A DNA stretch of 64,000 nt, filler included, from Chrysochromulina tobinii (taxonomy: Eukaryota), in the NCBI GenBank assembly GCA_001275005.1. It is 6 parts of 6 records of this genome, joined end to end, with 100 filler letters (N's around TTAATTAATTAA, not from the genome) between each part and the next. Parts side by side here need not be neighbours in the genome. Positions count along the whole stretch, not along the records: positions 1 to 21,761 come from JWZX01001297.1; 5 more parts are not named here. One strand, 5' to 3'. The position numbers and the translations under genes are program-made. Below are positions 1-15,987 of the stretch, piece by piece (within the stretch, counting starts at the first letter, position 1; each line of letters begins with the position of its first letter). The notes beneath the pieces were generated by a model, which was not told the DNA's origin, did no database searches, and saw nothing but the letters and a program-made list of their open reading frames with translations.

Positions 1-88
1 CGACAAGCCTCGACAGGCTCGACAGGCAAGGCCTCGACAGCAGCTCGACGGAGCCTCGACAGCTCGACAGCTCGACAGCCAGGGCTCA
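1..88. repeat. Degenerate tandem CTCGACAG array ending in CCAGGGCTCA; probable subterminal repeat of a dispersed or mobile element
   Basis: About 8 imperfect (CT)CGACA/G units visible directly; cut by the window start. Confidence 0.65.
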
Positions 89-296
89 CATTCGCATACC
101 CCACTTCGCACTCTAGACTCTTGATCATTCTCGTTTAGTCTCTCGTCTCGTCTACTGTATCGTCTTTATAGTTTTTTACTTGTTTGTAACTTCCTACTTT
201 TCCCATCGCGATCGCAGTTTCAGAGATCTCTTACTATAACACGGATAGCGTATTTCCGATGCGCGTTCGCGACTTCTATTCATCCCGAACGCCGCC

Positions 297-2246
297 TCAC
301 CACCGCCACCTCCGAAAGGCACGGTTTCGTGCCGAATCTGCTGTGCGTAGCCAGGATAGCCCGATGGCACCTGCCCATAGTTTGGTGGCATTAGGCTCCA
401 GCCAGGCACCTGCTGCCCTGGCACCTGCTCCTCTTCGCGCTGAGCGGGTGTGAAGGGAGCGGACCCCGCGGAGCCAACGGGTCCGATGTACTGTCGGACC
501 AGGGTCGGGCGCTGGATCGGGGTCTGTCGAGTAGGGCAGGACCAGGGTCGGGCCTGCCAGCCTGTGCGGAAGCGTGCGCGCGCCACGCTTCGAGAAGCGG
601 TTGTATATGAGGTAGCATGCGAGACTCACCGTCAAAAAACTCACAACGAAAGTCGCGAGGACGGCGACCAAAACGACGACCGATGAGGACCAAAATGAGG
701 GCGTGATGGGCGGCGACGACGGCGGTCTGGGCCTGGGAGGCGGGAAAGGAGGCCTCGGTGGGGGGGTTTTGGGCCAGGGTGGGGGTGGCGACGGCGGCGG
801 CGCCTGCGCAACCCGGAAGAGGTAAGCCGATCCGACGATCGACGAGCTGTCCCCTGAGTTGCTGTGTCCGTCCGCGCCAAGCACGAGAGCGTCGCCGGAG
901 ACGGAGCACGAGCCGCCTAAGTTGTCGTAGGGCTCGGCGTCCATGGCCACCAGGACACGCCTCCTGGCAGCTGATTGTGGGACATGCGATAGCGAGCGTC
1001 GGGGGGCTCGGTGGGCCACCTCCTCGTCGAAGGAATCCGAGTGGCGCAGGCTGCGTCGAAATAGTGGCTCAGAAAGGGGGATACCCCCGGCGTTCTCGAC
1101 TTCGTGGCCTTCAGTAGAGCTGGCTCCGCTCAGGCCCTGCAGCAGCACGCCGTGGCCCGCTTCGGCACCATTCATTGTCTGCCTTTTGGGGGCGCCGACG
1201 AGGGCCATGTCCGCGCCCAAAGATACGCAAGAGCCAAAAAAGTCATTCGGAAGGCTTTGATCGACGAACGTCACGGAGACGTTGGATGCCGAAGCGTAGC
1301 GGAATAGGTGAACAGCCCCACTGTCCGAGTTGCGCCGCGGCGAGCCGACCATGACGGCCCCCTGGAAGGTTGCGACCGACGATCCAAAGCGGTCGCCAGT
1401 CGCGTCGGCACCGAATGGCGAGACGAGGCGTTGGCGGAGCTGTCCGGTGATAATGTCGAAGACGTAGGCTGCCCCGGAGCCCGCCGCGGTCGCGGCCTCG
1501 TTGGGCGCTCCTACGACTATGAGGCCAGCGTGCGCGGCGACCGCGGTGCCAAACCTGGCGAGCGCCTGCACGGAGGAAGGGACGAGCCTTCTCAGCAAGA
1601 AGCCGCTGGTGCCGTCGAAGACGTACACGGTTCCGGCCATGTTTTGTCCACCCTGTGCGTGCGCCCGAGCGCCGACGATGGCGCGCCCGGCGTGGAGTGC
1701 CACTGTGAAGCCAAACTCATCGTTCGCAGCACCGTCGAATGGGATGAGCTTGCGCGTCTGGAGACCTGTCGATGCGGAGAAGATATACGCAGCGCCCGTT
1801 CGGGTGCCGATGCCCGTGAATGCCCCCGGTGCTCCGACGAGGGCGAGATTTTGGACAGCGTCCAGAGGGTGGTCGCCAGAGGGCAACGAGACCGAGGCGC
1901 CAAACTCAGCACGGGTGGGATCATATCCAGGGTCATCGGGACTGAGCACCATATTCAAGCGGCTTGTGGACAAGTCGAAGAGATACGCCGCACCGGAGAA
2001 GCCGCCGCGTGTATACTCGTAGGGTGCCCCAACGAGTACCATTGTCGTCCCGGTACTCACTGCCCAGCCAAACCGCGTTCCTTGAGCGATGTTTCCTCCT
2101 GGCACGATTGTGGTGCCAGAATAGTATTGCGGACCCGGCGGCGGCAAAGGCGGTGGGGGTGGCGGCAGCGGCGGAGATGACGGCGGCAAGGCTAGCGGAG
2201 GCGAGGGCGAGGGCGGTGGAGGCGATGGCGGCGACGGTGGTGCCAT
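297..2246 (-). CDS. FG-GAP repeat (integrin-alpha-like beta-propeller) single-pass membrane protein with Pro-rich stalks
   Basis: About 7 repeats of FG.SV...(L/I)VGAP...GAAY(L/V)F, PPSP tracts on both sides, TM VVVLVAVLATFVVSFLTVSLACYLIY. Start and cytoplasmic tail are uncertain (possible intron near 490-580). Confidence 0.8.
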   Translation of the reverse strand: MAPPSPPSPPPPSPSPPLALPPSSPPLPPPPPPLPPPGPQYYSGTTIVPGGNIAQGTRFGWAVSTGTTMVLVGAPYEYTRGGFSGAAYLFDLSTSRLNMVLSPDDPGYDPTRAEFGASVSLPSGDHPLDAVQNLALVGAPGAFTGIGTRTGAAYIFSASTGLQTRKLIPFDGAANDEFGFTVALHAGRAIVGARAHAQGGQNMAGTVYVFDGTSGFLLRRLVPSSVQALARFGTAVAAHAGLIVVGAPNEAATAAGSGAAYVFDIITGQLRQRLVSPFGADATGDRFGSSVATFQGAVMVGSPRRNSDSGAVHLFRYASASNVSVTFVDQSLPNDFFGSCVSLGADMALVGAPKRQTMNGAEAGHGVLLQGLSGASSTEGHEVENAGGIPLSEPLFRRSLRHSDSFDEEVAHRAPRRSLSHVPQSAARRRVLVAMDAEPYDNLGGSCSVSGDALVLGADGHSNSGDSSSIVGSAYLFRVAQAPPPSPPPPWPKTPPPRPPFPPPRPRPPSSPPITPSFWSSSVVVLVAVLATFVVSFLTVSLACYLIYNRFSKRGARTLPHRLAGPTLVLPYSTDPDPAPDPGPTVHRTRWLRGVRSLHTRSARRGAGARAAGAWLEPNATKLWAGAIGLSWLRTADSARNRAFRRWRW

Positions 2247-2443
2247 CTTGCAGCGCCGGACGCAGGGGCTGTTCACGTCCGAGCTCGGAGAAGGACACTC
2301 GCGTCTCCCGCGGTTCGCGGTCGCGCACGGCGCCCATACCGATTTTGGCGACGCTGTGAGTCGGTTCGGTTCAGGCGGTTGCTATCATGGCATTTCGCCA
2401 GCGGTGTGTTCATAAAGTGTGTTGCGGAATTTCGGCAGTGGAA

Positions 2444-5400
2444 ATGGCTTCCCGCCGAAAGAGCAATCGCGAGGCCGCGACGTCGACGCGCCTTTCAGCG
2501 GCAGTGCGGTCGCAGCTCGAGGCTGCGATCGATGACCTCGACGCGGTGGGCGTGCGCGAGCTGCTCCCTCCACCTCCGGCCGCCGTTGACGTTGATGACC
2601 TCGTTGATGACAACGGCACGCCGCTCCTGGTTCGGGCCATCTTTGCCAGTGACCCAAAGCAGAGCGACGCCTCGCTCGCCCTCGTCAAGGCGCTCTTGCA
2701 AGCGGGCGCGTCGCCAACGGCTGCTGATGAGGACGGCAACACCTCGCTGCACGTGTGCGCGAGCAAGCTCAAGCTCGAGCCTGAGTTTGCTGTCGCTGCA
2801 ACTGAAATGCTTCTGGACGAGCTCGCGGGGCAGCCGCCCGACGCATACGGCAGCACGCCGCTCGAGCACGCGATGGCTCTCGCCGACTGTGAGGGCCGCA
2901 CACCGCTCGCCGTCGTCATCAGGCAGGGCCGTCAACTTAGCCCAGCGGGGGGTGAGGCGGCGGGCGAGGCGGCGATGGTGGATGCGGCGCGGCTGTATGT
3001 GTCTCGCGGGGCGGGACTGCTACTGCCGTCGCCGCCGGCGGCGGCGCGGGCAGAGGCCGATCACATGGCAACCGCTGAGGCCGACGCGACGCCACCGCAA
3101 CCCGCGAGTGCCGCCGCGCAGAGGGCGACTAGCACGCTGCTTCACGAGGCTGCAGAGTGGGCACCACCGACGCTCGTGAGTGTGTTACTCGAGGCGGTTG
3201 ACGTGGAGGCGGCCATGGCGGTGGCGAACGCGCAGGGCGACGGGCCGCTGCAGGTGGCCCTCGCCAGGGGGCAGCGCGCCACCGCCGCCGCCCTCCTCGA
3301 CGCCTTCCCTGCGGCGTGTGAGGGCCCCTGGCAAGGCGCGCCACGCCCTGCTGCCCGCTCGCTCGCGGCGGCGTTGCATCGGCTGGTGCGCACAGTGGTG
3401 GAGACGCCCGCGAGTGCGCCGGTGCCACCGCCCATGCCTCCCGACTACGCCGGCTGCGTGCGCCTGCTCGTGGAGCGCAAGGGAGCCCCTGTCGACTCCC
3501 GGGATTCCTGTGGGCGCACTCCGCTCGCCGCGTCGCTCGTCCTCGGGGCACCCACCGCCATCTCGCACGCGCTGCTCCGACACTGCCGAGCCATCGAGGC
3601 GGCGGATACGGACGGGCGCTGTGCCCTGATGCATGCGGCGGCGGCGGGCGACGCACCGCTCTTGTCCGGAGTCCTTCAGGCTCTCCGTCGCGCCGCCCTG
3701 AGCGCTGGCTCCGGCGCGACCGCCGCTGCGCCGCCCGGCGGCGACCGCCATGGCGAGCGCCGTGGCGAGCGCGTGTCTCTCGCCGATCGTGCGCTCCTCT
3801 CGGCCGCACCGCCGCTGCCGGCAGCACCCCCCTCGGTCCTGCTGCGCCGAGTTCTCGCCGTCGATGTGCGCGGCGAGAGTGCGCTGTCGCTCGCGAGTGC
3901 CGCCCGCAGCTCGGCGTGCGTCCGAGCGTTGCTCGAGGCTCACGCTGATGTGCGCGGTGTGAATGCCGACGGGCGAGGCCCGATGATGATGGCCCTGAGC
4001 GGCGGCGGCAAGAGCGCCAAGGATGGGCGCGCCGAGAGTGAGCTCGTCGAGGTGCTGCGATTGCTCGCCGCGCCACCCACTGACACGTGCCTCGCTTTCG
4101 CTCGTAGGGCCGCCGCCGCCACAGCCGCCGCCACAGCCGCCGCCACAGCCGCCGCCACCGCCGCCGCCGCCGCCACAGCCGCCGCCACAGCCGCCGCCAC
4201 CGCCGCCGCCTCAGCTGCCGCCGCCACAGCCGCCGCCTCGGACGAGGAGCTGACGGCGGCAGGTGCACGGGCGGCGGCGCTGATGGCGCTCGTGTGCGAC
4301 GCGCGTGGTGAGTGTGCTCTCGCACTCGCTGCCGCGCGGCCCGCGAGTGCAGATGCTTTCGAAGCGCTCGTGACAGCGCTCGCGGCATGCGGCGTGAGCG
4401 TCGATAAGGGCGGCGGGAGCGCCTTGATCGCGCTCGCGGCGCGCGGCGAGCGCATCGGGGTGGAGCGGCTTCTGGCCATGGACCACGCCAAGGCTCTCAC
4501 GGCACCCACCACCATGCACATACCTTTGGCCGACCTCGCCTCGCCTTTGGTGCCCCTCGCGGGCGCGGGCCCACCCGCGCAGTCCTCACACTCGTCTGCG
4601 ACTGCGCTCGGCACGCGCGCAGGCAGCGCCGCCGTGGCCGCGGCGCGTGGCGGGCACGCGGAGACGCTGCAGGCGCTGCTCGCTCACGATGGTGCGAGTG
4701 CGAGTGTGCCAGTCGGGCCGGCGGAGGAGACAGCCCTGATGGCGGCGGCGGCGGCGGGTTCGACCGAGTGCGTGCAGCTGCTGCTGCGGCAGGTGGCCGG
4801 CGGCGGCGAGGCAAGTCGTACCGACGCTGCCGGCCGGACGGCCCTGATGCACGCGGCGCGTGGCGGCGTGCTCGGGTGTGTCGAGGCGCTGCTGGGTGCG
4901 CGTGTCGACTCGCACGCCTGCGACCGGTACGGCCGCTCATGCCTCGCACACGCCGCCGCGGGCGGGTCGGTCGCGTGCATAGAGGTCCTCCATCGCTGCC
5001 TCGGGAGCGGCGGAGCGGAGACGCTCGAGGCAGTGGATGCACTTGGTTCGACGCCTCTCCTCGAGGCTGCCGCACGCGCCCATGACGACGCGATCGCCGC
5101 CCTCGTCAGCATGGGAGCTTCCCTCGAGATGGCCCTCGACGCCGCCCTGCGCGGCCCCCCATCCGGCCTCGCGCAGGGCCGCGCGCATGGCGACGTCGGG
5201 CTCGGCGACGGCGGCGACGGAGGCGACGGAGGCGACGGAGGCGACGGCGGCGACGTCGATCCCGCCATTGGCGGTGACGCTGGTGAAGCCGCTGCGGCGC
5301 CGGCGTGCGCGGCTCCGGCGGAGGCGGCGGCCGCTGTGGGCTTTTGGCTCCAGGCCGCTCACACCCTCGCCCGGGTCGGCGGGAACGGCTTGCTCAGCTG

Positions 5401-6004
5401 GCGTGCCGTGCAGCTGCGCAGCCCGGCGGCGATGGTGCTGCCGCTGCTGCGCAGCCTGCGGCGCGCGGGCATCCTCGATGAGGAGGCGGCCCACCGCGAC
5501 CACGGGCGATCGCTCCTGCATGCCGCCGTCTTGGGCGTCGCCGACGGGGTGCTGAGCGAGGCACATGCTTGTGCCTACGCGTCAGGGCTGCCGCATGCAC
5601 AGCTGCTCGTGCGGGACGGCGAGGGTCTGACAGCGATCGGGCTGACGGCCGAGCGTGGGCTGGAAGCCCTCGGCCTTGCGCTCGAGACGATCGTGCTGCG
5701 TCGGCTGCGAGCACTCATCGAGATTGCACACGCGCCCGCGCACGAGGCACACGCCCGACGGGTGGCGGCGCAGCTGCACGCCTACTGGCCACAGCTCGAG
5801 CTGCGCGTGCACGCGCACGCGCACGCCGCCGCGCACGCCTCCGCCTTTGACGTGCTCTGGCTCGAGCGCTGGGGCGCTTCGCGCACCTCGCACGTGCTCT
5901 ACACGCACGCCGGCCGCGCCCTGTCGAAGCTGCCCGGCGAGCGTGCCCTCTGGCGCGAGGTGAGCCTCAAGATCGACGGCAAGGCCGTTCTCCTCAACCT
6001 GTAA
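2444..6004 (+). CDS. Large ankyrin-repeat protein
   Basis: Many D..G.T(P/A)L(H/M).AA..G motifs (DEDGNTSLHVCA, DAAGRTALMHAARGG, DALGSTPLLEAA); ATG 2444 is the likely start. Confidence 0.85.
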   Translation: MASRRKSNREAATSTRLSAAVRSQLEAAIDDLDAVGVRELLPPPPAAVDVDDLVDDNGTPLLVRAIFASDPKQSDASLALVKALLQAGASPTAADEDGNTSLHVCASKLKLEPEFAVAATEMLLDELAGQPPDAYGSTPLEHAMALADCEGRTPLAVVIRQGRQLSPAGGEAAGEAAMVDAARLYVSRGAGLLLPSPPAAARAEADHMATAEADATPPQPASAAAQRATSTLLHEAAEWAPPTLVSVLLEAVDVEAAMAVANAQGDGPLQVALARGQRATAAALLDAFPAACEGPWQGAPRPAARSLAAALHRLVRTVVETPASAPVPPPMPPDYAGCVRLLVERKGAPVDSRDSCGRTPLAASLVLGAPTAISHALLRHCRAIEAADTDGRCALMHAAAAGDAPLLSGVLQALRRAALSAGSGATAAAPPGGDRHGERRGERVSLADRALLSAAPPLPAAPPSVLLRRVLAVDVRGESALSLASAARSSACVRALLEAHADVRGVNADGRGPMMMALSGGGKSAKDGRAESELVEVLRLLAAPPTDTCLAFARRAAAATAAATAAATAAATAAAAATAAATAAATAAASAAAATAAASDEELTAAGARAAALMALVCDARGECALALAAARPASADAFEALVTALAACGVSVDKGGGSALIALAARGERIGVERLLAMDHAKALTAPTTMHIPLADLASPLVPLAGAGPPAQSSHSSATALGTRAGSAAVAAARGGHAETLQALLAHDGASASVPVGPAEETALMAAAAAGSTECVQLLLRQVAGGGEASRTDAAGRTALMHAARGGVLGCVEALLGARVDSHACDRYGRSCLAHAAAGGSVACIEVLHRCLGSGGAETLEAVDALGSTPLLEAAARAHDDAIAALVSMGASLEMALDAALRGPPSGLAQGRAHGDVGLGDGGDGGDGGDGGDGGDVDPAIGGDAGEAAAAPACAAPAEAAAAVGFWLQAAHTLARVGGNGLLSWRAVQLRSPAAMVLPLLRSLRRAGILDEEAAHRDHGRSLLHAAVLGVADGVLSEAHACAYASGLPHAQLLVRDGEGLTAIGLTAERGLEALGLALETIVLRRLRALIEIAHAPAHEAHARRVAAQLHAYWPQLELRVHAHAHAAAHASAFDVLWLERWGASRTSHVLYTHAGRALSKLPGERALWREVSLKIDGKAVLLNL
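4110..4237 (+). repeat. Coding minisatellite (GCCGCCGCCACA)n, poly-AAAT
   Basis: Direct tandem repeat within the ankyrin gene. Confidence 0.85.
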
Positions 6005-6319
6005 TCAGCCGAGCGGGGATTTCCATGGCATCGTCCTGAGCACAAATTAAGCACAAACCAGGTATTCACGAAACGGGGCATGGCCTCACACGTTTCACAT
6101 TGTCGGCGGTATGGGTTGAAACAGTCCCTTTCACAGCCACTTTGGTATATTCACAGTTGATTTTCTCGCTACCTCGAACAACATGCGGCGTCGCGAGGAG
6201 ACACGCATCGGTTATTCGGCGAGGTGAAGACAGCCCACGGAGCCCACGGACACCAATAGCGAGCAGCGCACCAGCTTTGAGTCCTTGGGGATCTCATATA
6301 CTCCCAGATTTCTGAGCAC

Positions 6320-7375
6320 ATGGTGCGGCTCGACCAAGCAGTCCTCGCCGACCTACGCTCGCGAGGCGCGCCCAAGGCTTCGCTCAAGGAAGCACAGCGG
6401 CTCATCCGAGCAGGCAACGTGCTCCTGGCAGGAAGCGTCACGCGCGAGCCAAAGATGCAGTTCGTTCCCGGCGTCGAGCCTGTGGCACTGGCCGCGTGTG
6501 GCACACCGCTCTCCTTGGGCGAGCACCAGTTCTACATCATGCACAAGCCCGTGGGATACGTGTGCCAGCGCCACCCGCGCGAGCCGAACGTGTACGATCT
6601 CATCCCCGAGCATTTGCGGCGTCACGACCTCGGTTGTGTCGGCCGCCTGGACCGCGACACGACGGGCACGCTGCTGCTGTGCACTGATGGCGGCGTGCAG
6701 AGCCTGCTGTTGCACCCGAGCTCACGGGTGTGGAAGACGTACACGGCCGAGCTCGACCCTTTGCAAGGCCGCCTATCACCTGACGCCGAGGCGCGCTTCC
6801 GTGCGGGCATGACGCTCGAGGACGGCACGCGGTGCGCGCCAGCAACGCTGGAGACGCTCTCCTCGGACGGCTTGCAAGTGCGCGTGACGGTGCACGAGGG
6901 CTTCTTCCACCAGGTGAAGCGCATGCTCGCACACTGCGGTGGCCTCGTGCGGCAACTCCACCGCGACCGCTTCGGGTTGCTGCGGGTCGGCGGCGGGACC
7001 GAGGGCGGCGGCGGCGGCGGCGAGGGCGTGGGCACGTTGCAAAGCGACAGCTCTGCTCCGTTGGCTCCGGGTGCGATGCGTGCTCTCACCGCCGTTGAGC
7101 TACTCTTGCTTGTGGCGATGCTGCCAGTCGACCGGTGTGCGAAAAGAGCGCTCGAGGGTCTGCGCCGGGGCGAGGCCGAGGCGGTGGAGGCCGAGGCGGT
7201 GGGGGCCGAGGCGGTGGGGTCCGAGGCGGTGGGGGCCGAGGCAGTGGACGAGGAGCAGTCCGCAGTGGAGGTGCGCACCGTACCCCTCGAACTCGGCGTG
7301 GATAGCAGGAGCGCTGCATGCACTGTAACGGCGAAACGGCGTTTCGAGGAGACTCGAGAAGACGACGGCGACTAG
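6320..7375 (+). CDS. RsuA-family rRNA pseudouridine synthase with N-terminal S4-like domain
   Basis: MHKPVGYVC, VGRLDRDTTGTLL (catalytic Asp), VTVHEGFFHQVKRM, LHRDRFG. Confidence 0.92.
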   Translation: MVRLDQAVLADLRSRGAPKASLKEAQRLIRAGNVLLAGSVTREPKMQFVPGVEPVALAACGTPLSLGEHQFYIMHKPVGYVCQRHPREPNVYDLIPEHLRRHDLGCVGRLDRDTTGTLLLCTDGGVQSLLLHPSSRVWKTYTAELDPLQGRLSPDAEARFRAGMTLEDGTRCAPATLETLSSDGLQVRVTVHEGFFHQVKRMLAHCGGLVRQLHRDRFGLLRVGGGTEGGGGGGEGVGTLQSDSSAPLAPGAMRALTAVELLLLVAMLPVDRCAKRALEGLRRGEAEAVEAEAVGAEAVGSEAVGAEAVDEEQSAVEVRTVPLELGVDSRSAACTVTAKRRFEETREDDGD

Positions 7376-7600
7376 CGTCTAGCCAAAGGTCCGACGGCGC
7401 AAAGCGGCGCGTCCCCGCGCATTCGACGTCGATATGACTTCACGGGTGTGGCTGGGGTTAAACATGGAAAATTAAGATTTGCACTTTACACAGCGCAGTC
7501 ACGAGTCATTACACACGAGGACCCGGCGGACGAATCGAGATGCCCTCGATGAGCGGGGCGGGCCACGGACACGGGACATCGTCCTAACTCCTAAGTATGT

Positions 7601-8476
7601 CTACAACTCGTCCCTTTCTCGGGTCGTATCCATTCCTCCTACCGCCTCACCGCCATCCGCATCCTCGTGCTCGGCTGGCGCCAGTGCGGCTGGGCTGCCG
7701 TCACTTTCGATCGAGCCGTCGTGCAGACCAGCCGCCTCTCCCTCTAGCCGCCCCGTGGGCCGCCTCGCAAGCATCTCATCGGCGAAGGCACGCAGCCGAC
7801 GGAAGGTGGGCGGCCCGTCGTGCCACACGGGCTCGCGCTCGTGCGCCGCGCTGTGCAGCCACAGGACAGCCGGCGTCGCATTCACGCCCAGGCGCTCCGC
7901 GATCGCCGCGGTCCGCGGCGTCGACGAGTGCACACGCACCTCGAGCACGAGGAGCTGACCTCGCAGCGTTGACGAAAGAGCCTTAAGAAGCGGCGGCGTC
8001 GTCGATGAAGCGCGCCGCCGCACGAAGCACAGCATGCGCGGCAACCGCCAGGCGGCCGCGCTGCTGCCTGCCCGATCCCACGCCTCCTGGTCCTCCACAA
8101 CGGTCACGAAGCTCGGCATGAGCGCAGCCGCAAAGCTGGCAAGGTCTGCCACCTGGCGGCTCCCGTCGTAGTCGACGAGACGAGCGCCGCCGGTGGCACT
8201 CGGGACCACGGCACGGATGGTGGGCGTCGCATTCGCCTCGCCGAGCAGCGGTGGTAGCGTCTGGTGGGCGTGCGCATCCCAGGAGCCGACGACGACCTCG
8301 TGGCGCAGCTGCTTAGCGAGCTGCTCCCAGCGCGGCGTGAGGGCCTGGCAGAAGCCGCACGACGGGCGACAGATATTGACGAGCCAGAGCAGCGACGATG
8401 GGCCGCCGCTCGCCGCAAGCATTTCCGGCGAGAGCGCCACGACCGAGCCAGCGGCCTGGAGCTGCGTCGCCATCAT
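7601..8476 (-). CDS. Thioredoxin-fold / protein disulfide isomerase-like protein
   Basis: PSCGFCQALTPRWEQLA (CxxC), TPTI cis-Pro motif, YDGSR, a second inactive Trx-like domain, C-terminal RDEL ER-retention signal. Confidence 0.85.
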   Translation of the reverse strand: MMATQLQAAGSVVALSPEMLAASGGPSSLLWLVNICRPSCGFCQALTPRWEQLAKQLRHEVVVGSWDAHAHQTLPPLLGEANATPTIRAVVPSATGGARLVDYDGSRQVADLASFAAALMPSFVTVVEDQEAWDRAGSSAAAWRLPRMLCFVRRRASSTTPPLLKALSSTLRGQLLVLEVRVHSSTPRTAAIAERLGVNATPAVLWLHSAAHEREPVWHDGPPTFRRLRAFADEMLARRPTGRLEGEAAGLHDGSIESDGSPAALAPAEHEDADGGEAVGGMDTTRERDEL

Positions 8477-8740
8477 TTTCTAGTGACTGTGAATGGATTG
8501 TGAATAGGTATGGAAATCGAAGGGGAGGGGGGGGAGGGGGGGGGGGAAGAATCCTTACAGGGAGTCCGGGGACCTGCGTTCACGGCGCGTGTTGTTTTTC
8601 ACATCGCCTTTTCGATTTTGGGATGAGTTTTCTCTTCCTCTCGCTCTAGTCTCCGCTTCTGGCTCCGTGCTCCAACTAGGCTCCGGCCCGTGCTGCATTC
8701 CCGCGTCCAGAATCCTCCGTATTTCTGCGGGCGTGGGAAG

Positions 8741-11700
8741 ATGAAAGTGGCCATGTGCATCCTTCTAGCTTGGGTGGTTGGGTCGAGCGAGGGCAATGAC
8801 GATTGGGATGAACCCGTCGCAGATCAAGAAGATCCGGGCAGAGGAGCGCGAGCGGAGTGTCGCTGTCAGGCGCGCCTGGACGTGCAACTCGTGGTACCTT
8901 TGCTTCTCGAGCGCGATCATCGCCATCGCCTTCATCCACCCGCTCCTTTCATCGACGGGCTGAGAAAGGGCATGCGCCAGGACTTTGAGATCGCGTTCGA
9001 GGAGCTCTTCATCGAGGGCAAGCTCTGGGACGCTGGCGTCAAGTCCTCGTTCCCGTACGGCCAGACGAATGCGAACGAGGACGCTGCGGGCGACGGGCCC
9101 GTCGAGGAAGCGGCGAAAAGGGACGGGATACCTTTGCGGTGGGTGGAGCGCTTCGACGGCGGCGCACTCGTGCTGCTCTGGCTCGGGTTGCTCGGGTTCA
9201 TCTTTGCAGTTTGCTCGGAGCAGGATCGGTCCAGCCGGAACAAGCGCTTCGCAATTCGGTCGAAAACCAATCGCTCCCACCGTAACAAGTGGTTCGAACT
9301 GGCCTTGCTCGCGCACATGGTCCCGCGCGTCGCCGACGCACAGAGCGCCTACTTTGCCGTCACCTCTGGCCGTTGCACCGTCGATCCGAGCGCGTGGAAC
9401 TGCATTCGCTCGCCCAACTTTCCGTATGATTACGTCAACAGTCAGACGTGCTCCATCACGCCGACTGCGCTCGCCATTGGAAGGCCTTTGACAGCGACCT
9501 CCTTCATTACGGAGTCTTGTTGCGACTACCTCCGCATACCTAGCCACCCGTCGGGGACGTTGACGGCGTTCTCAGGATGGACCGGACCTTCCAATTTCAT
9601 CTTGGGCCCGGGGACGATCCAATGGTCTTCAGACAGCAGAGTCACCCATACCGGCTGGCGAGTGTGCGCGGGCTCGGCGGGCTCGGCGGGCTCGGGCGGG
9701 ATCGCTCGACTTGTGGAGCTCACTCGCAGCGGCAGCGCGGTGGAAAAGGAGAACGCGGCGGCGGAGCTGTCGACCCTTGCCTACAACAACGCCGACAACC
9801 AAGTGGCGATCGCGCGCGCGGGCGGGATCGCTCCACTCGTCGAGCTCACTCGCAGCGGCAGCCTGGTAGCGAAGGAGAAGGCGGCGGGGGCGCTGTGGAC
9901 CCTTGCCTACAACGCCGACAATAGAGTGGCGATCGCGCGGACGGGCGGGATCGCTCCACTCGTCGAGCTCACTCGCAGCGGCAGCGCGGTGGCGAAGGAG
10001 AAGGCGGCGGGGGCGCTGTGGAACCTTGCCGTGAACGCCGACAACAAAGTGGCGATCGCGCGCGCGGGCGGGATCGCTCCACTCGTCGAGCTCACTCGCA
10101 GCGGCAGCGCAATGGCAAAGGAGCATGCGGCGGCGGCGCTGTGGAACCTTGCCGTGAACGCCGACAACAGCGTGGCGATCGGGCAGGCGGGCGGGATCGC
10201 TCCACTCGTCCAGCTCACTCTCAGCGGCAGCGCGGTGGCAAAGCAGAACGCGGCGGCGGCGCTGTGGACCCTTGCCTTGAACGACGACAACAAAGTGGCG
10301 ATCGCGCAGGCGGGCGGGAACGCCAACGACCAAGCAGCGATCGCGCAGGCGGGCGGGATCGTCACACTCGTCGAGCTCACTCGCAGCGGCGGCGCGGCGG
10401 CAAAGGAGCAGGCGGCGGGGGCGCTGTGGGTCCTTACACGGAACGCCACGAACAGCGTGGCGATCGCGCGCGCGGGCGGGATCGCTCCACTCGTCGAGCT
10501 CACTCACATCGGCAGCGCGGTGGCAAAGGAGAACGCGGCGGGGGCGCTGTGGAGCCTAGCCTTGATCGACGACAACAGCGTGGCGATCGCGCGCGCGGGT
10601 GGGATCGCTCCACTCGTCGAGCTCACTCACATCGGCAGCCCGAGGGCACAGGAGAACGCGGCGGGGGCGCTGTGGGTCCTTGCACGGAACGCCGACAATA
10701 GAGTGGCGATCGCACAGGCGGGCGGGATCGCTCCACTCGTCGAGCTCACTCGCAGCGGCAGCGCGGAGGCAAAGGAGAAGGCGGCGGCGGCGCTGCGGAA
10801 CCTTGCCGTGAACGACGACAACAAAGTGGCGATCGCGCGCGCGGGCGGGATCGCTCCACTCGTCGAGCTCACTCGCAGCGGCAGCGCGGTCGCAAAGGAG
10901 AAGGCGGCGGCGGCGCTGTGGAACCTTGCCGTGAACGACGACAACAGCGTGGCGATCGCGCAGGCGGGCGGGATCGCTCCACTCGTCGAGCTCACTCGCA
11001 GCGGCAGCGCGGTCGCAAAGGAGAAGGCGGCGGGGGCGCTGCGGACCCTTGCCGTGAACGCCGACAACCAAGTGGCGATCGCGCAGGCGGGCGGGATCGC
11101 TCCACTCGTCGAGCTCACTCGCAGCGGCAGCGCGGAGGCAAAGGAGAACGCGGCGGCGGCGCTGCGGAACCTTGCCGTGAACGCCGACAACAGAGTGGCG
11201 ATCGCGCAGGCTTGTGGGACACTCGTCGAGCTCACAGCGGCAGCGGGGGCACAGTTTTGGGGCTTGGTTCTGGTTTGCTTGCTTCTGGCTTGCTTCCCGC
11301 TGATGCATGCCTGTTGTTGCCTGCCAAAAAACCCGCCAGTGAAGATAGTCAAAGTTGCAGATGAGGAGGGGGAAAACACAGAATTGCTTCCAGTCGGGAC
11401 TGCCAGGAGCAACGCCGGGCATGCCATCGCGCCTCCACCGAGGTGGGACAAGGCGGCAGCAGAGAGGGCGCTGCCTCTGCCACTGATTGCCTTGCCCCCT
11501 GCCATCTTTCTCGACGTCCCTTTTCAAGTTGTGCGTGCCCTCGTGCTTCCTGATTGCTTGCGACGAAGCGCCGTGCTGGGCACCACGTGCTTTTCACTGA
11601 GTATCCTACTGCCCTGCCATTTCGAGGTCGACCGTTCTCAAGCGCCAAGTTGTGCGTGCTCTCGCGCTTCCACAGGGGCGAGGCAGAGCGGCGCGAGGCA

Positions 11701-13149
11701 GAGCAGCGCGAGGCAGAGCGGCGCGAGGAAGAGCGGCGTGAGGCCGAGCGGCGCGAGGCGCAGCAGCGCGAGGCAGCGCGGCGCGAGGCAGAGCGGCGCG
11801 AGGCAGCGCGTCGCGAGGCAGAGCGGCGCGAGGCAGAGCGGCGCGAGGCAGAGCGGCGCGAGGCAGAGCGGCGCGAGGTGCAGCAGCGCGAGGCAGAGCG
11901 GCGCGAGGAAGAGCTGCAACGCGAAGCGGAGGCCGCGGCGGAGGAGCTGCGGCGCCGAGCAACGGCGCTGGGGCTACTGCAGGTGCTCACGAATGCCGGC
12001 GTCGCCGACGACGCGACGTTGAAGAAGTCGATCGCGTGGTGCGACGAGGAGGGCGTGACGAACGTCTCCGACATTGTCAAGCACAAACTGGTCGACAAAT
12101 TTGTTCTCCATCTCGGCCTGAAGAATGTCCCCGGCATGGAGCTGCGCAGCTTGTTGCAACGCGCCCCGATGAGCAACCGCGGCTGGCCGAGCATCCCCAG
12201 CTGGTTGACGTCGTTCGGACTGCCGGTCGCGGGGAACGGGGCTGCCGACGAGAAGTATCAACGCGCACTGCAGGAGGACGGCTTCGCCCTCCGGGCTCTT
12301 CTGCCGGGGACCGATAAAAGCACGCTAAAATCGCTCGAGGCGCTGCTCAAGATAGATCGCCCAAAGTGGCTCGGCAAGGGCAACGACGTGTCGAAAACGT
12401 ACGGCCCGTATGACAAGCTGAAGCTCGCGTGTGCGTGGGAGGTCAACCATCCACTACTGCGATCCAAGTACACGGCCGGCTCACTCACGGTGCAGCAGGA
12501 GCTCAGGCAGCTTCAGAATAGGGGCAAGGATGTCACCACTGTGCCCGGCCTGCCCGTGAAGACGGCTCGCGTGCGCGGCTTCGAACTCTCGGAGGATTGC
12601 AATGAGGTCATTCTCTTGCATGGCGTCAACCGAGAGAAGCTGTTTAACCTGCTGTCTACGGGCCTGAACGAGCGCTTCGCCGGCATCGGTGCGGGCGCCG
12701 CCTTCGGCGCCGGCGTCTACCTCGCGGAGGACGCTGGCAAAACGGATCAGTACGTCAGCGCTGATAGCGCGTACGACCCGAGCAGTGAGCTGCACAAGCG
12801 GCTGTATGACGAAACCATGCCCCACCCGGAGGACGTCTTCTACGTTCTCGTGGTGCGCGCCGCCCTCGGCTTCCCCGTGCGCACGCAGCATACGGGCGAG
12901 GGGGCCACCTCGATGGACAATGAAGCGCCCATCTTCCCCGTCGCCTACCGTGAGCTCTCGGCGGTGCCGGGCGTCAATCCACCAATCTTCCACCATTCGC
13001 TGATTGCCGAGCTGGGCAAGGATATCGTGCGCTACCGCGAGTTTGTTTTCTTCCACTCCGACTACGTGCACATCGACTACGTCATCGCCTACCACCGCTA
13101 CAATGGCGACCAGAAGCTGCGCACGACAGTCTGTCCCGTATCTGTGTGA
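8741..13149 (+). CDS. Two-exon receptor-like protein: signal/TM - CUB - armadillo repeats - TM - coiled coil - SAM-like - PARP/tankyrase-type ADP-ribosyltransferase (exons 8741-11442, 11676-13149)
   Basis: CUB (CIRSPNFP..Y..C.I, F.TESCCDYLRI, WSSD.VT..GW); 12 full ARM repeats; TM FWGLVLVCLLLACFPLM; GT 11443...CAG 11675 joins the ORFs in frame; ART motifs NEVILLHG, FGAGVYLAEDAGKTDQY, HHS, YREFVFF. Confidence 0.8.
9695..11236 (+). repeat. Tandem array of ~123-nt units encoding 41-aa armadillo repeats (12 full, 1 internally deleted, 1 partial)
   Basis: Near-identical DNA scaffold GCGGGCGGGATCGCTCCACTCGTCGAGCTCACTCGCAGCGGCAGC repeated. Confidence 0.95.
11443..11675 (+). other. Phase-2 GT-AG intron joining the ARM ORF to the ART ORF
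   Basis: CCG AG|GTGGGA ... TTCCACAG|G GGC rebuilds the AGG (Arg) codon and moves into the ART frame. Confidence 0.75.
11680..11910 (+). repeat. 15-nt coding minisatellite (GAGGCAGAGCGGCGC)n, EAERR charged helix
   Basis: Direct tandem repeat of about 15 units. Confidence 0.9.
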
Positions 13150-13604: not shown

Positions 13605-14561
13605 TCACGTCGCCCGAAGCGCGTCGCGCATTGTGTCCTGGTCAGCGGCTCCGCCGCGTTTGTCGTGCCGCGACTGGCGCCAGAAAAAGGCCGTCCCTTG
13701 CTCGGCTGTCTCGTGGGGCACTGCGCCAGCGAGGGGCGGCGCGGCTTCTTCCCATCCGTCGGCCGCTCGCAGCCGTCGGTTGACGGTCACCACGACCGTG
13801 TCGGCGGGCAGAGCGCTCGCGGCGAGCGCTGCGGAGAGCCGCTCGACATGCACGCCGTCAGAGGACTCGAATTTCGTGGCATACGCGTACACGACGGCGG
13901 CACCGGCGCAGGTCGTCTGCAGGGTCGCAAGGTCGTAGATGCTCCCGCGCACGGCGATAGCACGGGCGAGGGCCGGGTCGCTTGCACTCGCGATGGCGTA
14001 CGCGGCCGCTCCGATAGCATGCAATTCGGGCATCAGCTCGAGTGACGTGCATGCGCCACCCAGACGCACCGGCTCTTCTCGCGCAGCCGCAAGGGCCAGT
14101 GACCCCTTGCCGCCGCCGAGATCGCAAAAGCTGCGACGTGAGCCGGCGACCGGACTCACGAGGGCGAGCGCGGTTTGCAAGCACTGTAGGAAGAAGGAGA
14201 GGTCACTCTCTCCATAGATGAACTCGTCGCCGCCGTACGCATCGTCGTCGTCGTCAAGTGAGTCCATCGGCCTCGCCAGGGCGGCACCATCTTCGTCGTG
14301 GGCATCGATGGTGTCGTCATTATATGCCTGCGCATCCGTCTCCGGAAAGAGCACTGCCTCGTAGTCGATGGCATCGTAAGTAGCGGCGAGGAATTCTTCG
14401 CAGCTGAGCAGTGCAGTCCCAGCACATATGAGAGTCGATCGGCTGCTCAAGCTGATGGATTTGCGACCGCAGAGTGGCAGTGGCGAACATCGAGTCGGCG
14501 GCGGCGCGCTAGCTGGCGTCAACCAGCCGCTGACCGTCGTCGCGAATGCGAGAGCAATCAT
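13605..14561 (-). CDS. Class I SAM-dependent methyltransferase (DOT1-like), probably plastid-targeted
   Basis: IYGE...F, FCDLGGGKG (motif I), SLELMPELH, VRGSIYD; signal peptide plus Ser/Pro-rich leader. Confidence 0.75.
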   Translation of the reverse strand: MIALAFATTVSGWLTPASAPPPTRCSPLPLCGRKSISLSSRSTLICAGTALLSCEEFLAATYDAIDYEAVLFPETDAQAYNDDTIDAHDEDGAALARPMDSLDDDDDAYGGDEFIYGESDLSFFLQCLQTALALVSPVAGSRRSFCDLGGGKGSLALAAAREEPVRLGGACTSLELMPELHAIGAAAYAIASASDPALARAIAVRGSIYDLATLQTTCAGAAVVYAYATKFESSDGVHVERLSAALAASALPADTVVVTVNRRLRAADGWEEAAPPLAGAVPHETAEQGTAFFWRQSRHDKRGGAADQDTMRDALRAT

Positions 14562-14654
14562 TTCTTTTCAGACCAAAAAGATCGGGTGCTCGACTCGACG
14601 CGACCTGAAAAACACCAAACGCGCATGTTGGCACACGACGCCCGTTACACGGTC

Positions 14655-15569
14655 CTAGTACTTGAATACCTCGGCCTCGTGGAAGCCCGCCTCGGCAAGC
14701 AGCCCCGTGAGTGGCCCCTGGATCTTGGGCCCCTTGGAGCCATCGGCCTTCTTTGGGCCACGTCCCGTCTTGCCGCCCCACGTGTCCACGAAGCCATCTG
14801 TGCCGCACACGAAGATCATCGTCATGCCGTTGGGCGCGCCAGGCGGCGGCAGTGCGGACTGGATCATCGCCAATGAGCCACGCCCCGTGAAGCCGGGCCA
14901 GCCAGAGTACACGGGACCGGTGAGGCTGTAGGCCACCTGGAAGCGCTCCGGGTGCGCCGCGGCCATTGCGTCCAGCTCCGCTTTCATGAGGATGTCCTCT
15001 TCATGGCGATTGATGCTCAACATGCGCACCGTCGTGAGGTCGTGTGGGTCGTCGAGCACGATGCGTGCAATCTGGATGAGCGGCGCGATGCCCGTGCCGC
15101 CGCCTACGAGCCCGATGGCCCGCCATCGGCGGGTCACTTCTGCGCTGCCGTGCACCATGCGCTTCTTCTTCAGGGTCGCCTGCATGGTTTCACCAATTTC
15201 CAGATTGCAAATGAACGAGCCGACGCCACCGCCCGGCCTCGGCACGTACGCCTTGACCAGCAGGTCCACAACGCCCTCGAGCGCCGGGTGAGAAACGGGC
15301 GAGTAGCTCTTCTCGAGAACCGTTGGTGTACCAGCCTCGTTCGTACCGTCCGGGTATGCCACCGTGATGCAAGTCGGCAACGTCGGGTCCTCACCAAGGA
15401 AGCGTTTGGACGGCGGGAGCGAGAAGCGAAGCAGCCACGCGTCGGGACTCGTTCGAGTCTTGGAGAGGAGCGTGTATGGCAGTGGGCCGTCCACCGACGA
15501 GCACGCTGCCGTGCTCGTTGCGGCCGCCCGCGTCAGGGCGCACACGAGGACGCGCGAAGCTCGCCGCAT
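14655..15569 (-). CDS. NADH-cytochrome b5 reductase family flavoprotein
   Basis: KSYSPVS, DLLVKAY..GG..S, GLVGGGTGIAPLIQ, IFVCG, VFKY C-terminus. Confidence 0.92.
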   Translation of the reverse strand: MRRASRVLVCALTRAAATSTAACSSVDGPLPYTLLSKTRTSPDAWLLRFSLPPSKRFLGEDPTLPTCITVAYPDGTNEAGTPTVLEKSYSPVSHPALEGVVDLLVKAYVPRPGGGVGSFICNLEIGETMQATLKKKRMVHGSAEVTRRWRAIGLVGGGTGIAPLIQIARIVLDDPHDLTTVRMLSINRHEEDILMKAELDAMAAAHPERFQVAYSLTGPVYSGWPGFTGRGSLAMIQSALPPPGAPNGMTMIFVCGTDGFVDTWGGKTGRGPKKADGSKGPKIQGPLTGLLAEAGFHEAEVFKY

Positions 15570-15987
15570 GTGTGTGTCGTCAGCAATGGTTTTCTACCCA
15601 AAGTTCGTACCAAAAATATCGAGAGATACAATTATGAGCGTGGGGGACCGCATACCGGTAAAAAGACACCGGGGGGAGCCGGGACACACACGGGACACGC
15701 GGACGCACAAAGGCACACGGACCGCACAGACGAGCCTCACAACCATCCAAACCCACCAACAACACACAACCCGCACGTCAGCGCGACGACCAAAGCCGCG
15801 GCCGACCGCGTACGGTAGTCTGCCTGACTGTCAACAAGGGGCGCGCAAGTTTGAATTCAGAAGTGCCGATTTGGACAGCGCCCGTATGTATCATGCTGAA
15901 TTCCTAATATGGACCGCGTTACCGGTATTTGTCATGAAATACATCCGTCGGCGTCGGTGTGGCCGTGTGATCGTCCGCCCCTGTGCA

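What the first reader, a model, noticed from the sequence alone, without database searches (positions are those of the whole stretch)
8741..13149. Hidden single gene for a receptor-type ADP-ribosyltransferase: CUB-ARM(n)-TM-coiled coil-SAM-like-tankyrase-like ART
Seen: the ORF track splits this locus in two, but a GT-AG intron at 11443-11675 rebuilds an Arg codon and fuses them in frame. The C-terminal domain keeps the PARP-family H-Y-E triad (H 12619, Y 12718, E 13039) and tankyrase-like motifs (G.NER.A, FGAGVY.AE...K..QY, HHS). A ~65-aa helical segment (about 11965-12160) resembles a SAM domain. Established: tankyrase is ANK-SAM-PARP and SARM1 is ARM-SAM-TIR; both couple repeat sensors to NAD+-consuming effectors activated by SAM oligomerisation. 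Inference: this is a membrane-spanning analogue in which ligand binding on one side clusters a cytosolic ART, a candidate algal innate-immune or cell-death receptor. I know of no described protein with this architecture.
Basis: partly seen in the sequence, partly recalled or inferred. Interest (0 to 1): 0.9.

Follow-up and report, generated by a model that had tools for sequence, protein, structure and literature searches.

The report
Algal membrane receptor with ADP-ribosylating tail
In a single-celled haptophyte alga, a spliced gene encodes a protein predicted to cross the membrane, with a varied armadillo-repeat array likely outside the cell and a SAM-like domain plus a tankyrase-like ADP-ribosylating enzyme inside; it would be an undescribed kind of immune-type receptor, although this copy likely joins halves of two sister genes by an assembly error.

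Summary
The GT-AG intron at 11443-11675 fuses the two frames into 1,391 aa, and one RNA contig skips exactly these 233 bases. The ARM array and a PARP domain pass Pfam cut-offs. The enzyme folds like tankyrase with H-Y-E kept. The small helical domain ranks SAM domains first, at modest Z. Relatives encode the same order in one intron-free frame (P0004, P0123, L001).

Three corrections. (1) The fusion is not hidden: public model KOO34205.1 ('vacuolar protein 8', Chrysochromulina tobinii) already joins ARM to PARP, but splices out CUB and both membrane segments. (2) There are two membrane segments plus an internal signal-like segment. (3) Eight other records join this 5' half to a different, paralogous 3' half at a 55-nt repeat (10450-10505), so this copy is probably an assembly chimera; both 3' halves end in TM-SAM-like-ART.

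The SAM-like module is also fused to TIR, R-S-E ART and Roc-COR proteins. ARM variation falls on one helix face. Best reading: a diversified receptor ADP-ribosyltransferase. Activation, ligand and immune role are untested.

The parts
8741..8794 (+). Predicted N-terminal signal peptide (aa 1-18)
   Evidence: Sequence. Similar N-termini in P0004 and P0184. Judged by eye; no signal-peptide predictor was available.
8795..9157 (+). N-terminal module of unknown family, predicted luminal
   Evidence: No Pfam hit. Residues 72-138 recur in at least 17 relatives. RNA contigs of X1 and X5 show a second variant with 5 differences at 8840-8900.
9158..9214 (+). Hydrophobic segment 1 (aa 140-158), predicted membrane span
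   Evidence: Kyte-Doolittle 2.36; followed by a 25-aa loop with 9 K/R and 2 D/E.
9287..9340 (+). Internal signal-peptide-like segment (aa 183-200) in front of CUB
   Evidence: Relatives have a more hydrophobic version ending in a V-S-A-type cleavage motif (20 proteins printed). Inferred, not predicted by a tool.
9341..9667 (+). CUB-like domain
   Evidence: Pfam CUB E 0.04, CUB_M02D8 E 0.02, both below cut-off; eight matches in a cubilin-like protein; the same domain lies N-terminal of a strong membrane segment in P0186, P0187, P0188, P0190.
9695..11215 (+). Array of 12 armadillo repeats (41 aa each; one with a 13-aa insert)
   Evidence: Pfam Arm E 1.1e-80; repeats listed; variable positions on one face of helix 3.
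10450..10505 (+). 55-nt repeated word where the window and other assemblies part (possible mis-join)
   Evidence: L001 and L002 match window 1-10505 with one difference, then diverge; the word occurs 3 times in the L001 array.
11255..11329 (+). Hydrophobic segment 2 (aa 839-860) with a Cys cluster and lysines behind it; predicted main membrane span
   Evidence: Kyte-Doolittle 2.48; read through by RNA contigs of X1, X2, X3.
11443..11675 (+). 233-nt GT-AG intron, phase 2
   Evidence: Frame restored; skipped by one X2 contig; holds a duplicated acceptor-like stretch at 11525 and 11646.
11677..11958 (+). Charged pentapeptide-repeat helix / coiled-coil linker (about 15 EAERR-type units)
   Evidence: Sequence; coiled coil inferred from composition.
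11959..12162 (+). SAM-like domain, a module shared across the family
   Evidence: Model pLDDT 81.6; top ten structural matches are SAM domains, Z 4.9-5.6, rmsd 2.4-4.0; 71 representatives at E<=0.001.
12253..13149 (+). Tankyrase-like ADP-ribosyltransferase domain with H (12619), Y (12718), E (13039), then stop
   Evidence: PF00644 above cut-off; tankyrase best by sequence and by fold (E 1.8e-14, TM 0.76 on the target); H 63 of 65, Y 65 of 65, E 64 of 65 rows.

Best explanation
This spliced gene encodes a predicted membrane receptor whose CUB and armadillo repeats likely face outward and whose SAM-like domain and tankyrase-like ADP-ribosyltransferase likely face the cytosol, so that binding of an outside ligand would cluster the SAM-like domains and switch on NAD+-dependent ADP-ribosylation, likely as a defence signal. 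Shown here: the splice, the domain order, the H-Y-E enzyme fold, the same order in intron-free relatives, at least two paralogous 3' halves in the same RNA runs, and repeat variation concentrated on one helix face. Inferred: the topology (from signal peptides, charge bias and CUB), the SAM assignment (fold match at modest Z), activation by clustering (by analogy with tankyrase), and the immune role (from the partner domains and the diversification). The exact 5'-to-3' join in this window is probably an assembly error between two paralogues of the same design.
For: Splice: and one RNA contig. One-frame relatives: P0004 is signal peptide-ARM-TM-charged helix-SAM-like-ART in 601 aa, with nothing between signal peptide and ARM. 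P0123 and L001 (1,491 aa, no intron) have the same order; P0114 is ARM-TM-SAM-like; P0184 is signal-N module-CUB-CUB-ARM. Enzyme. SAM. Membrane-ART is a recurring design in this family: P0007, P0008, P0010 have a Pro-rich ectodomain, a membrane span, RRRRR and the ART; P0028, P0036, P0039, P0129 also have membrane segments before the ART. These fall on several branches of a quick ART tree (45 rows, SH-aLRT only). The SAM-like module is shuffled among immune-type effectors: in the 25-row alignment TIR_2 7, R-S-E ART 3, PARP 3; also Roc-COR, ankyrin, MIB/HERC2 and, in weak hits, NACHT and TPR. Diversification: in 18 distinct repeats of the two paralogues the variable sites are positions 16, 20, 23, 27, 30; pN 0.120 vs pS 0.108 overall; the helix-3 variability is one-sided (92 of 20,000 shuffles reach it). 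That this face is the peptide-binding groove of ARM proteins is recalled; PMC11228518 (passages) says helix H3 forms the pockets. SAM polymerisation activates tankyrase catalysis (PMC9712121, abstract).
Against: No activity, ligand, localisation or infection data. The splice rests on one contig in 1 of 4 runs, and unspliced contigs are deeper. SAM Z-scores are below 8, which the tool says can be a common arrangement; Pfam and Foldseek gave no significant SAM hit. Armadillo repeats are, to my knowledge, intracellular, and the outward topology of this copy needs a degenerate internal signal segment that holds His, Arg and Asp. Many ART relatives, including the P0007 type, lack the SAM-like domain, so it is not needed for the receptor design. 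dN/dS of 0.84 between the two ART domains fits relaxed selection as well as diversifying selection. The repeats are related by duplication and come from error-prone assemblies, so the variability statistics are not independent samples. The window's own join is contradicted by 8 records.
Confidence: 0.5

Rival explanations
1. This particular copy is an assembly chimera: the 5' half (signal, CUB, ARM 1-6) belongs to the gene seen in L001, and the 3' half (ARM 7-12, TM, intron, SAM-like, ART) to a paralogue elsewhere in the genome. This concerns the identity of the copy and is compatible with the best explanation.
For: L001 and L002 equal window 1-10505 except for one base, then diverge at a 55-nt word repeated in the array; L001's downstream 6.4 kb has no counterpart in the window beyond three hits of 43-52 nt. 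All 8 long records with this 5' half other than the public model (P0121, P0122, P0164-P0168, P0170) end in the other 3' half. The window's first frame is not in the protein collection (2 start variants tried). RNA holds both 3' halves and a second 5' variant. The public assembly was a Phrap merge of short-read assemblies, and the alga is thought haploid (PMC4580454, passages).
Against: The 8 records disagree among themselves inside the array (11 or 14 repeats, mixed residues), so they too are unreliable there, and they may derive from one culture lineage and similar assemblers. The public assembly used 8-kb paired 454 reads. Real recombination between arrays would give the same picture.
Confidence: 0.65
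2. The protein is a membrane-tethered intracellular sensor in the manner of SARM1: ARM repeats in the cytosol hold the enzyme off until they bind an inside ligand, and the hydrophobic segments serve only as anchors.
For: Armadillo repeats are known as cytosolic or nuclear (recalled; best PDB matches are Vac8, beta-catenin, ARMC4). The internal signal-like segment of this copy is weakly hydrophobic (not detected at threshold 1.5). The L001 paralogue has several hydrophobic segments after ARM, so an even number of crossings is possible there.
Against: P0004 has a signal peptide directly before ARM and one strong hydrophobic stretch after it. CUB, a disulphide-type extracellular domain, lies next to ARM, and sits in ectodomains in relatives. 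The Cys cluster and lysines follow segment 2 on the enzyme side.
Confidence: 0.15
3. It is a receptor enzyme, but for ordinary sensing (prey or partner recognition, adhesion, trafficking), with mono-ADP-ribosylation as a reversible signal and no role in defence or cell death.
For: The alga is mixotrophic and phagocytotic (PMC4580454, passages). The same ART domain is fused to protein kinases and other non-immune domains. The gene is present in RNA of all 20 listed mixed-culture runs, with no infection on record in the listing.
Against: The shared SAM-like module couples to TIR, ART and Roc-COR domains typical of conflict systems; one-faced repeat variation and paralogue turnover resemble immune receptor families.
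Confidence: 0.25
4. The fusions are near-neutral by-products of repeat-driven shuffling in a repeat-rich genome and have no coherent function.
For: dN/dS 0.84 in ART and pN about equal to pS in ARM; frequent unspliced RNA; the same modules occur in many odd combinations.
Against: Open frames of 1,391 and 1,491 aa; catalytic residues kept in 63-65 of 65 rows; 17 of 41 ARM positions invariant while one face varies; the order ARM-TM-SAM-like-ART recurs on more than one branch.
Confidence: 0.1

Closest known systems
Tankyrase (TNKS1/2; PARP clade 4)
   Same: SAM next to an H-Y-E ADP-ribosyltransferase, behind a helical repeat array; best match by sequence and fold. SAM polymerisation activates it (PMC9712121, abstract).
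   Different: [quoted passage not shown]
SARM1
   Same: ARM-SAM-NAD+-consuming effector order; its SAM domains are among the top structural matches; relatives here carry SAM-like-TIR.
   Different: SARM1 has tandem SAMs and a TIR NADase, and its ARM domain is intracellular (recalled); here one SAM-like domain, an ART, and a membrane span between ARM and SAM.
Public model KOO34205.1 'vacuolar protein 8' (P0160)
   Same: Maps letter for letter to this locus in three blocks (8972-9139, 9638-11197, 11986-13146) and already joins ARM to PARP.
   Different: Its predicted introns remove the signal peptide, both membrane segments, CUB and the charged helix; RNA contigs of X1 and X3 bridge its second donor and contigs lie inside its first intron. 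The name reflects ARM similarity only.
Single-pass receptor enzymes and pattern receptors (receptor kinases, Toll-like receptors, Eph receptors with SAM); membrane ARTs (PARP16, ecto-ARTs)
   Same: Repeat ectodomain, membrane span, cytosolic effector switched by clustering (recalled).
   Different: The effector here is a PARP-family enzyme and the ectodomain an ARM array. PARP16 is tail-anchored and ecto-ARTs face outward (recalled); I know of none with a receptor ectodomain.
Brown algal LRR-ROC-COR candidate immune receptors
   Same: Algal repeat sensors under shuffling and diversifying selection (PMC11378527, abstract).
   Different: Those are LRR GTPases with one exon per repeat; here the ARM array is a single exon and the effector an ART.

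Membership tests
PARP-family (ARTD) ADP-ribosyltransferases | PARP catalytic domain by profile and fold | tested here: met
   PF00644 38.2 bits vs cut-off 26.7; Foldseek E 1.8e-14 to tankyrase-1; model pLDDT 91.8.
PARP-family (ARTD) ADP-ribosyltransferases | H-Y-E triad | tested here: met
   H 63 of 65, Y 65 of 65, E 64 of 65 rows. This copy has H-G-V where 51 of 65 rows have H-G-T.
PARP-family (ARTD) ADP-ribosyltransferases | Mono- or poly-ADP-ribosylation activity | not testable with these tools
   Needs an enzyme assay.
Tankyrase (PARP clade 4) | 15-18 ankyrin repeats | tested here: not met
   Repeats are armadillo; definition from PMC2964712 passages.
Tankyrase (PARP clade 4) | SAM domain before the catalytic domain | tested here: inconclusive
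   SAM-like fold, tankyrase SAM Z 4.9, rmsd 2.8 over 62 residues, 8% identity; no sequence match.
SAM domain | Five-helix SAM fold | tested here: inconclusive
   Ten best of 48,161 chains are SAM domains, but Z is only 4.9-5.6 and non-SAM rows follow at 4.8; Foldseek not significant. I rate it likely.
SAM domain | Head-to-tail self-association | not testable with these tools
   Needs a biochemical test.
SARM1 | ARM followed by tandem SAM and a TIR NADase | tested here: not met
   One SAM-like domain and a PARP domain, no TIR.
CUB domain | Sequence match with Cys pattern and S-P-N-[FY]-P motif | tested here: met
   Pfam below cut-off, but eight matches to a cubilin-like protein, best 45% over 55 aa. 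Fold not modelled.
Type I membrane receptor | Signal peptide, ectodomain, membrane span, cytosolic effector | tested here: inconclusive
   Hydropathy and charge bias only; simple in P0004, needs an internal signal segment in this copy. No topology predictor was available.
Vac8 (name on the public model) | ARM-only soluble protein without catalytic or membrane domains (recalled) | tested here: not met
   Similarity is limited to ARM; this protein has CUB, membrane segments and an ART.

The most novel reading that the evidence does not exclude
Chrysochromulina-type haptophytes have a combinatorial innate-immune receptor kit: outward-facing armadillo arrays that diversify their binding groove and swap halves by recombination through the repeats, wired across the membrane through a shared SAM-like oligomerisation exon to interchangeable NAD+-consuming effectors (tankyrase-like PARP, R-S-E ART, TIR). 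This gene would be the first receptor PARP, and a tankyrase/SARM1-type switch rebuilt independently in a single-celled alga.
Probability: 0.33. Interest if true: 0.9.

Novelty: new variant of a known kind. Interest (0 to 1): 0.73.

Why it matters
How single-celled algae sense viruses and bacteria is largely open. A membrane protein that likely couples a variable outer repeat array to an inner SAM-ART unit gives a concrete, assayable candidate in a cultured, probably haploid alga. It would add two things I could not find in print: an ADP-ribosyltransferase as the effector of a surface receptor, and armadillo repeats used outside the cell. The shared SAM-like module, which has no Pfam family, marks a wider set of TIR, ART and Roc proteins. 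The case also shows how a gene caller hid the receptor features by inventing introns over the membrane segments.

Tried and rejected
Two separate genes: rejected (spliced contig; one-frame relatives). Public model's introns: no joint for them in 4 + 4 run layings; contigs cannot show absence, but X1 and X3 bridge its second donor. RNA bins without cover (parts of the ARM array, the charged helix, the flanks) were not used as evidence. No contig shown bridges the 10450-10505 join in either version (tables cut), so RNA could not settle the chimera question. Complex prediction of two SAM-like copies gave 'no answer' (score 0.00, mark 0.32): no evidence either way. Foldseek on the SAM-like model: nothing at E<=0.001. 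Profile search with the CUB alignment hit only Pro-rich sequences because full-length rows were aligned. Viral contigs: 33 pattern matches, none a relative of the ART. A census of membrane segments before ART (10 of 127) missed known cases such as P0007 and was dropped. The careful ART tree did not finish; only the quick tree is cited, with 45 hand-picked rows and labels set by me. The protein atlas did not complete. No whole genome is held, so copy number was not counted. Earlier findings of the scan: three look-ups, nothing. PMC12480563 and PMC10732462 (passages) and PMC4580454 (passages) do not mention PARP or armadillo proteins in their main texts; their supplements were not read and may list domain expansions.
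Full report
1. What is in the sequence. Frame 1 opens at the ATG at 8741 and frame 2 ends at the stop at 13147-13149. Removing 11443-11675 (GT...CAG, 233 nt) rebuilds an Arg codon and gives 1,391 aa without an internal stop. By sequence alone this is 1 of 112 frame-keeping GT-AG pairs, so RNA was needed. Twenty RNA runs hold 24-43% of the sampled words. Of four laid, X2 has one contig that skips 233 nt with GT..AG ends (depth 2, 27 nt on the short side); contigs break at the donor in X2 and X3; contigs that run into the intron are seen in X1, X2 and X3. The splice is real but thinly sampled, and unspliced RNA is common.

2. Domains. Pfam gives Arm (E 1e-80) and PARP (38.2 bits, cut-off 26.7), weak CUB, and nothing for SAM. 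The enzyme's best PDB matches are tankyrase-1 and -2 by single sequence, by a 65-row profile (E 1.7e-18) and by fold (model pLDDT 91.8; Foldseek E 1.8e-14). H, Y and E are kept in 63, 65 and 64 of 65 rows. The segment 11959-12162 folds into short helices (pLDDT 81.6). Against 48,161 chains its ten best matches are SAM domains, among them those of SARM1 and tankyrase, at Z 4.9-5.6. That is a consistent but modest signal, and Foldseek found nothing significant. The CUB-like part matches eight stretches of a cubilin-like protein.

3. Topology. There are two strong hydrophobic segments, aa 140-158 and 842-860. Two spans alone would put CUB-ARM in the cytosol and the enzyme outside. But the basic loop after segment 1 (9 K/R in 25 aa) ends in a segment that in relatives looks like a signal peptide with a V-S-A-type end. 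Used as an internal signal, it returns CUB-ARM to the outside and leaves the enzyme cytosolic, in line with the Cys cluster and lysines behind segment 2. The simplest relative, P0004, has a signal peptide directly before ARM, one membrane stretch, then charged helix, SAM-like domain and ART in one 601-aa frame. The same CUB-like domain sits in Pro-rich ectodomains before a membrane span in P0186, P0187, P0188 and P0190. Outward-facing ARM is therefore likely but is inferred from hydropathy and comparison.

4. Already annotated, wrongly. The cluster of the C-terminal frame contains KOO34205.1, 'vacuolar protein 8' of Chrysochromulina tobinii, on a 21,761-nt contig, the length of the window's first N-free segment. 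It maps to 8972-9139, 9638-11197 and 11986-13146: one ARM-PARP gene whose predicted introns delete CUB, both membrane segments and the charged helix. RNA contigs bridge its second donor (X1 11162-11612, X3 11106-11395) and lie within its first intron (X2, X3, X4).

5. This copy is probably a chimera. Loci L001 and L002 (2 of 30 candidate stretches confirmed) equal window 1-10505 but for one base, then diverge. The 55 nt before the break occur three times in the L001 array. L001 continues as one 1,491-aa frame: 14 ARM repeats, several hydrophobic segments, a short charged helix, SAM-like (90%) and ART (69-77%), no intron, with a different downstream flank. All 8 long records with this 5' half, apart from the public model, end that way, though they differ inside the array. 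Both 3' halves are in runs X1 and X2, and a second 5' variant appears in X1 and X5 (5 differences, 4 changing a residue). The genome paper describes a Phrap merge of short-read assemblies and a probably haploid cell (PMC4580454, passages). So the alga likely has at least two paralogues, and the window joins one's head to the other's tail (about 65%), or records a real recombination. Either way the 5' half with CUB-ARM is followed by TM-SAM-like-ART.

6. The family. The ART has 146 hits at near length and 39 longer ones; named hits are from Chrysochromulina parva, C. tobinii and, distantly, Chromera. It is fused behind ARM, TIR, ankyrin, TPR, kinase and plain ectodomain-TM modules. In a quick tree of 45 chosen rows the ARM-TM-SAM-like members and the other membrane members lie on several branches. 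The SAM-like module has 71 representatives among 1.84 billion proteins. Its partners include TIR_2 (7 of 25 aligned members), R-S-E ART (3 of 25) and PARP (3 of 25), also Roc-COR, ankyrin, MIB/HERC2 and ubiquitin; 47 of the 65 new representatives had no Pfam hit or only a low-complexity one at E<=0.001 (counted by eye). In 11 of 116 SAM-like proteins the charged helix starts with an R-W/D-D/W-K motif that matches the bases at this intron's 5' edge (12 regex hits, one unrelated), which suggests, without proving, a shared phase-2 exon module whose upstream exons the gene callers missed.

7. Signs of diversification. In 18 distinct regular repeats of the two paralogues (of 26 found), 17 of 41 positions are invariant, while 16, 20, 23, 27 and 30 vary; pN 0.120, pS 0.108. 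The variability within helix 3 is one-sided (92 of 20,000 shuffles). From the alignment to an engineered ARM protein and recalled structures this is the groove that binds peptides; PMC11228518 (passages) states that helix H3 forms the pockets. The two ART domains differ with dN/dS 0.84. Repeats are not independent and assembly errors may mix them.

8. Mechanism. Most likely: ligand binds the outer ARM/CUB part, receptors cluster, the charged helix lifts the SAM-like domains off the membrane, they associate, and the tankyrase-like domains are switched on as in tankyrase filaments (PMC9712121, abstract), ADP-ribosylating themselves or partners at the cost of NAD+. Architecture is shown; topology is inferred (about 0.75); clustering-driven activation and a defence role are analogies (together about 0.5). 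Mono- versus poly-ADP-ribosylation is unknown.

9. Relation to known systems. It works like tankyrase or SARM1 turned into a membrane receptor, but is a member of neither: no ankyrins, no TIR, and tankyrases are confined to animals (PMC2964712, passages). Seven literature searches (listings only) showed no description of this architecture or of outward ARM arrays; the library lacks most subscription journals. PMC12480563 and PMC10732462 were seen as passages, PMC11378527 as abstract, PMC4980433 as a listing.

10. Verdict. A real, transcribed, spliced gene of an undescribed haptophyte receptor-ART design, mis-annotated in public data, with a likely mis-join in this copy and untested function. 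New variant of a known kind; interest 0.73.

Noticed in passing
window 11443-12022: If the intron is retained, frame 1 reads on to a stop at 12020-12022 and gives CUB-ARM-TM with a tail but no SAM-like or ART domain; unspliced contigs are deeper than the spliced one. Possible decoy isoform.
   Followed up: partly
window 11443-11470; P0066, P0113, P0120 and others: The first bases of the intron encode the same R-W-D-K-A-A-A start that opens the charged-helix exon in relatives, and the intron holds a duplicated acceptor-like stretch: the intron may stem from a duplication of the module's 5' edge.
   Followed up: partly
window 8954-9340; P0184, P0185, P0191-P0209: A conserved 'luminal piece-TM-basic loop-internal signal peptide' cassette precedes many unrelated ectodomains in these algae. 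It has no Pfam family and may allow polyprotein-like processing.
   Followed up: partly
P0133-P0150: A sister clade fuses a protein kinase to the same ART; P0136 and P0142 also have a membrane span, that is a predicted receptor kinase-ART.
   Followed up: no
P0030, P0034, P0035: TIR and ART domains in one protein, including a Chrysochromulina parva gene model.
   Followed up: no
P0157, P0159: SAM-like domain followed by an unassigned C-terminal domain with a V-S-H-R-W motif, which by recall resembles HET-type effector domains; no Pfam hit there.
   Followed up: no
window 2360-8476 and 13605-15593: Neighbours are ordinary: ankyrin protein, pseudouridine synthase, a thioredoxin-like gene head to head with this one, and an FAD/NAD oxidoreductase; the frame at 13605-14567 has no Pfam hit but looks like a methyltransferase by eye.
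   Followed up: partly
L001 13400-19785: Downstream flank differs from the window: a kinase-like frame and two transporter-like frames, by eye.
   Followed up: no
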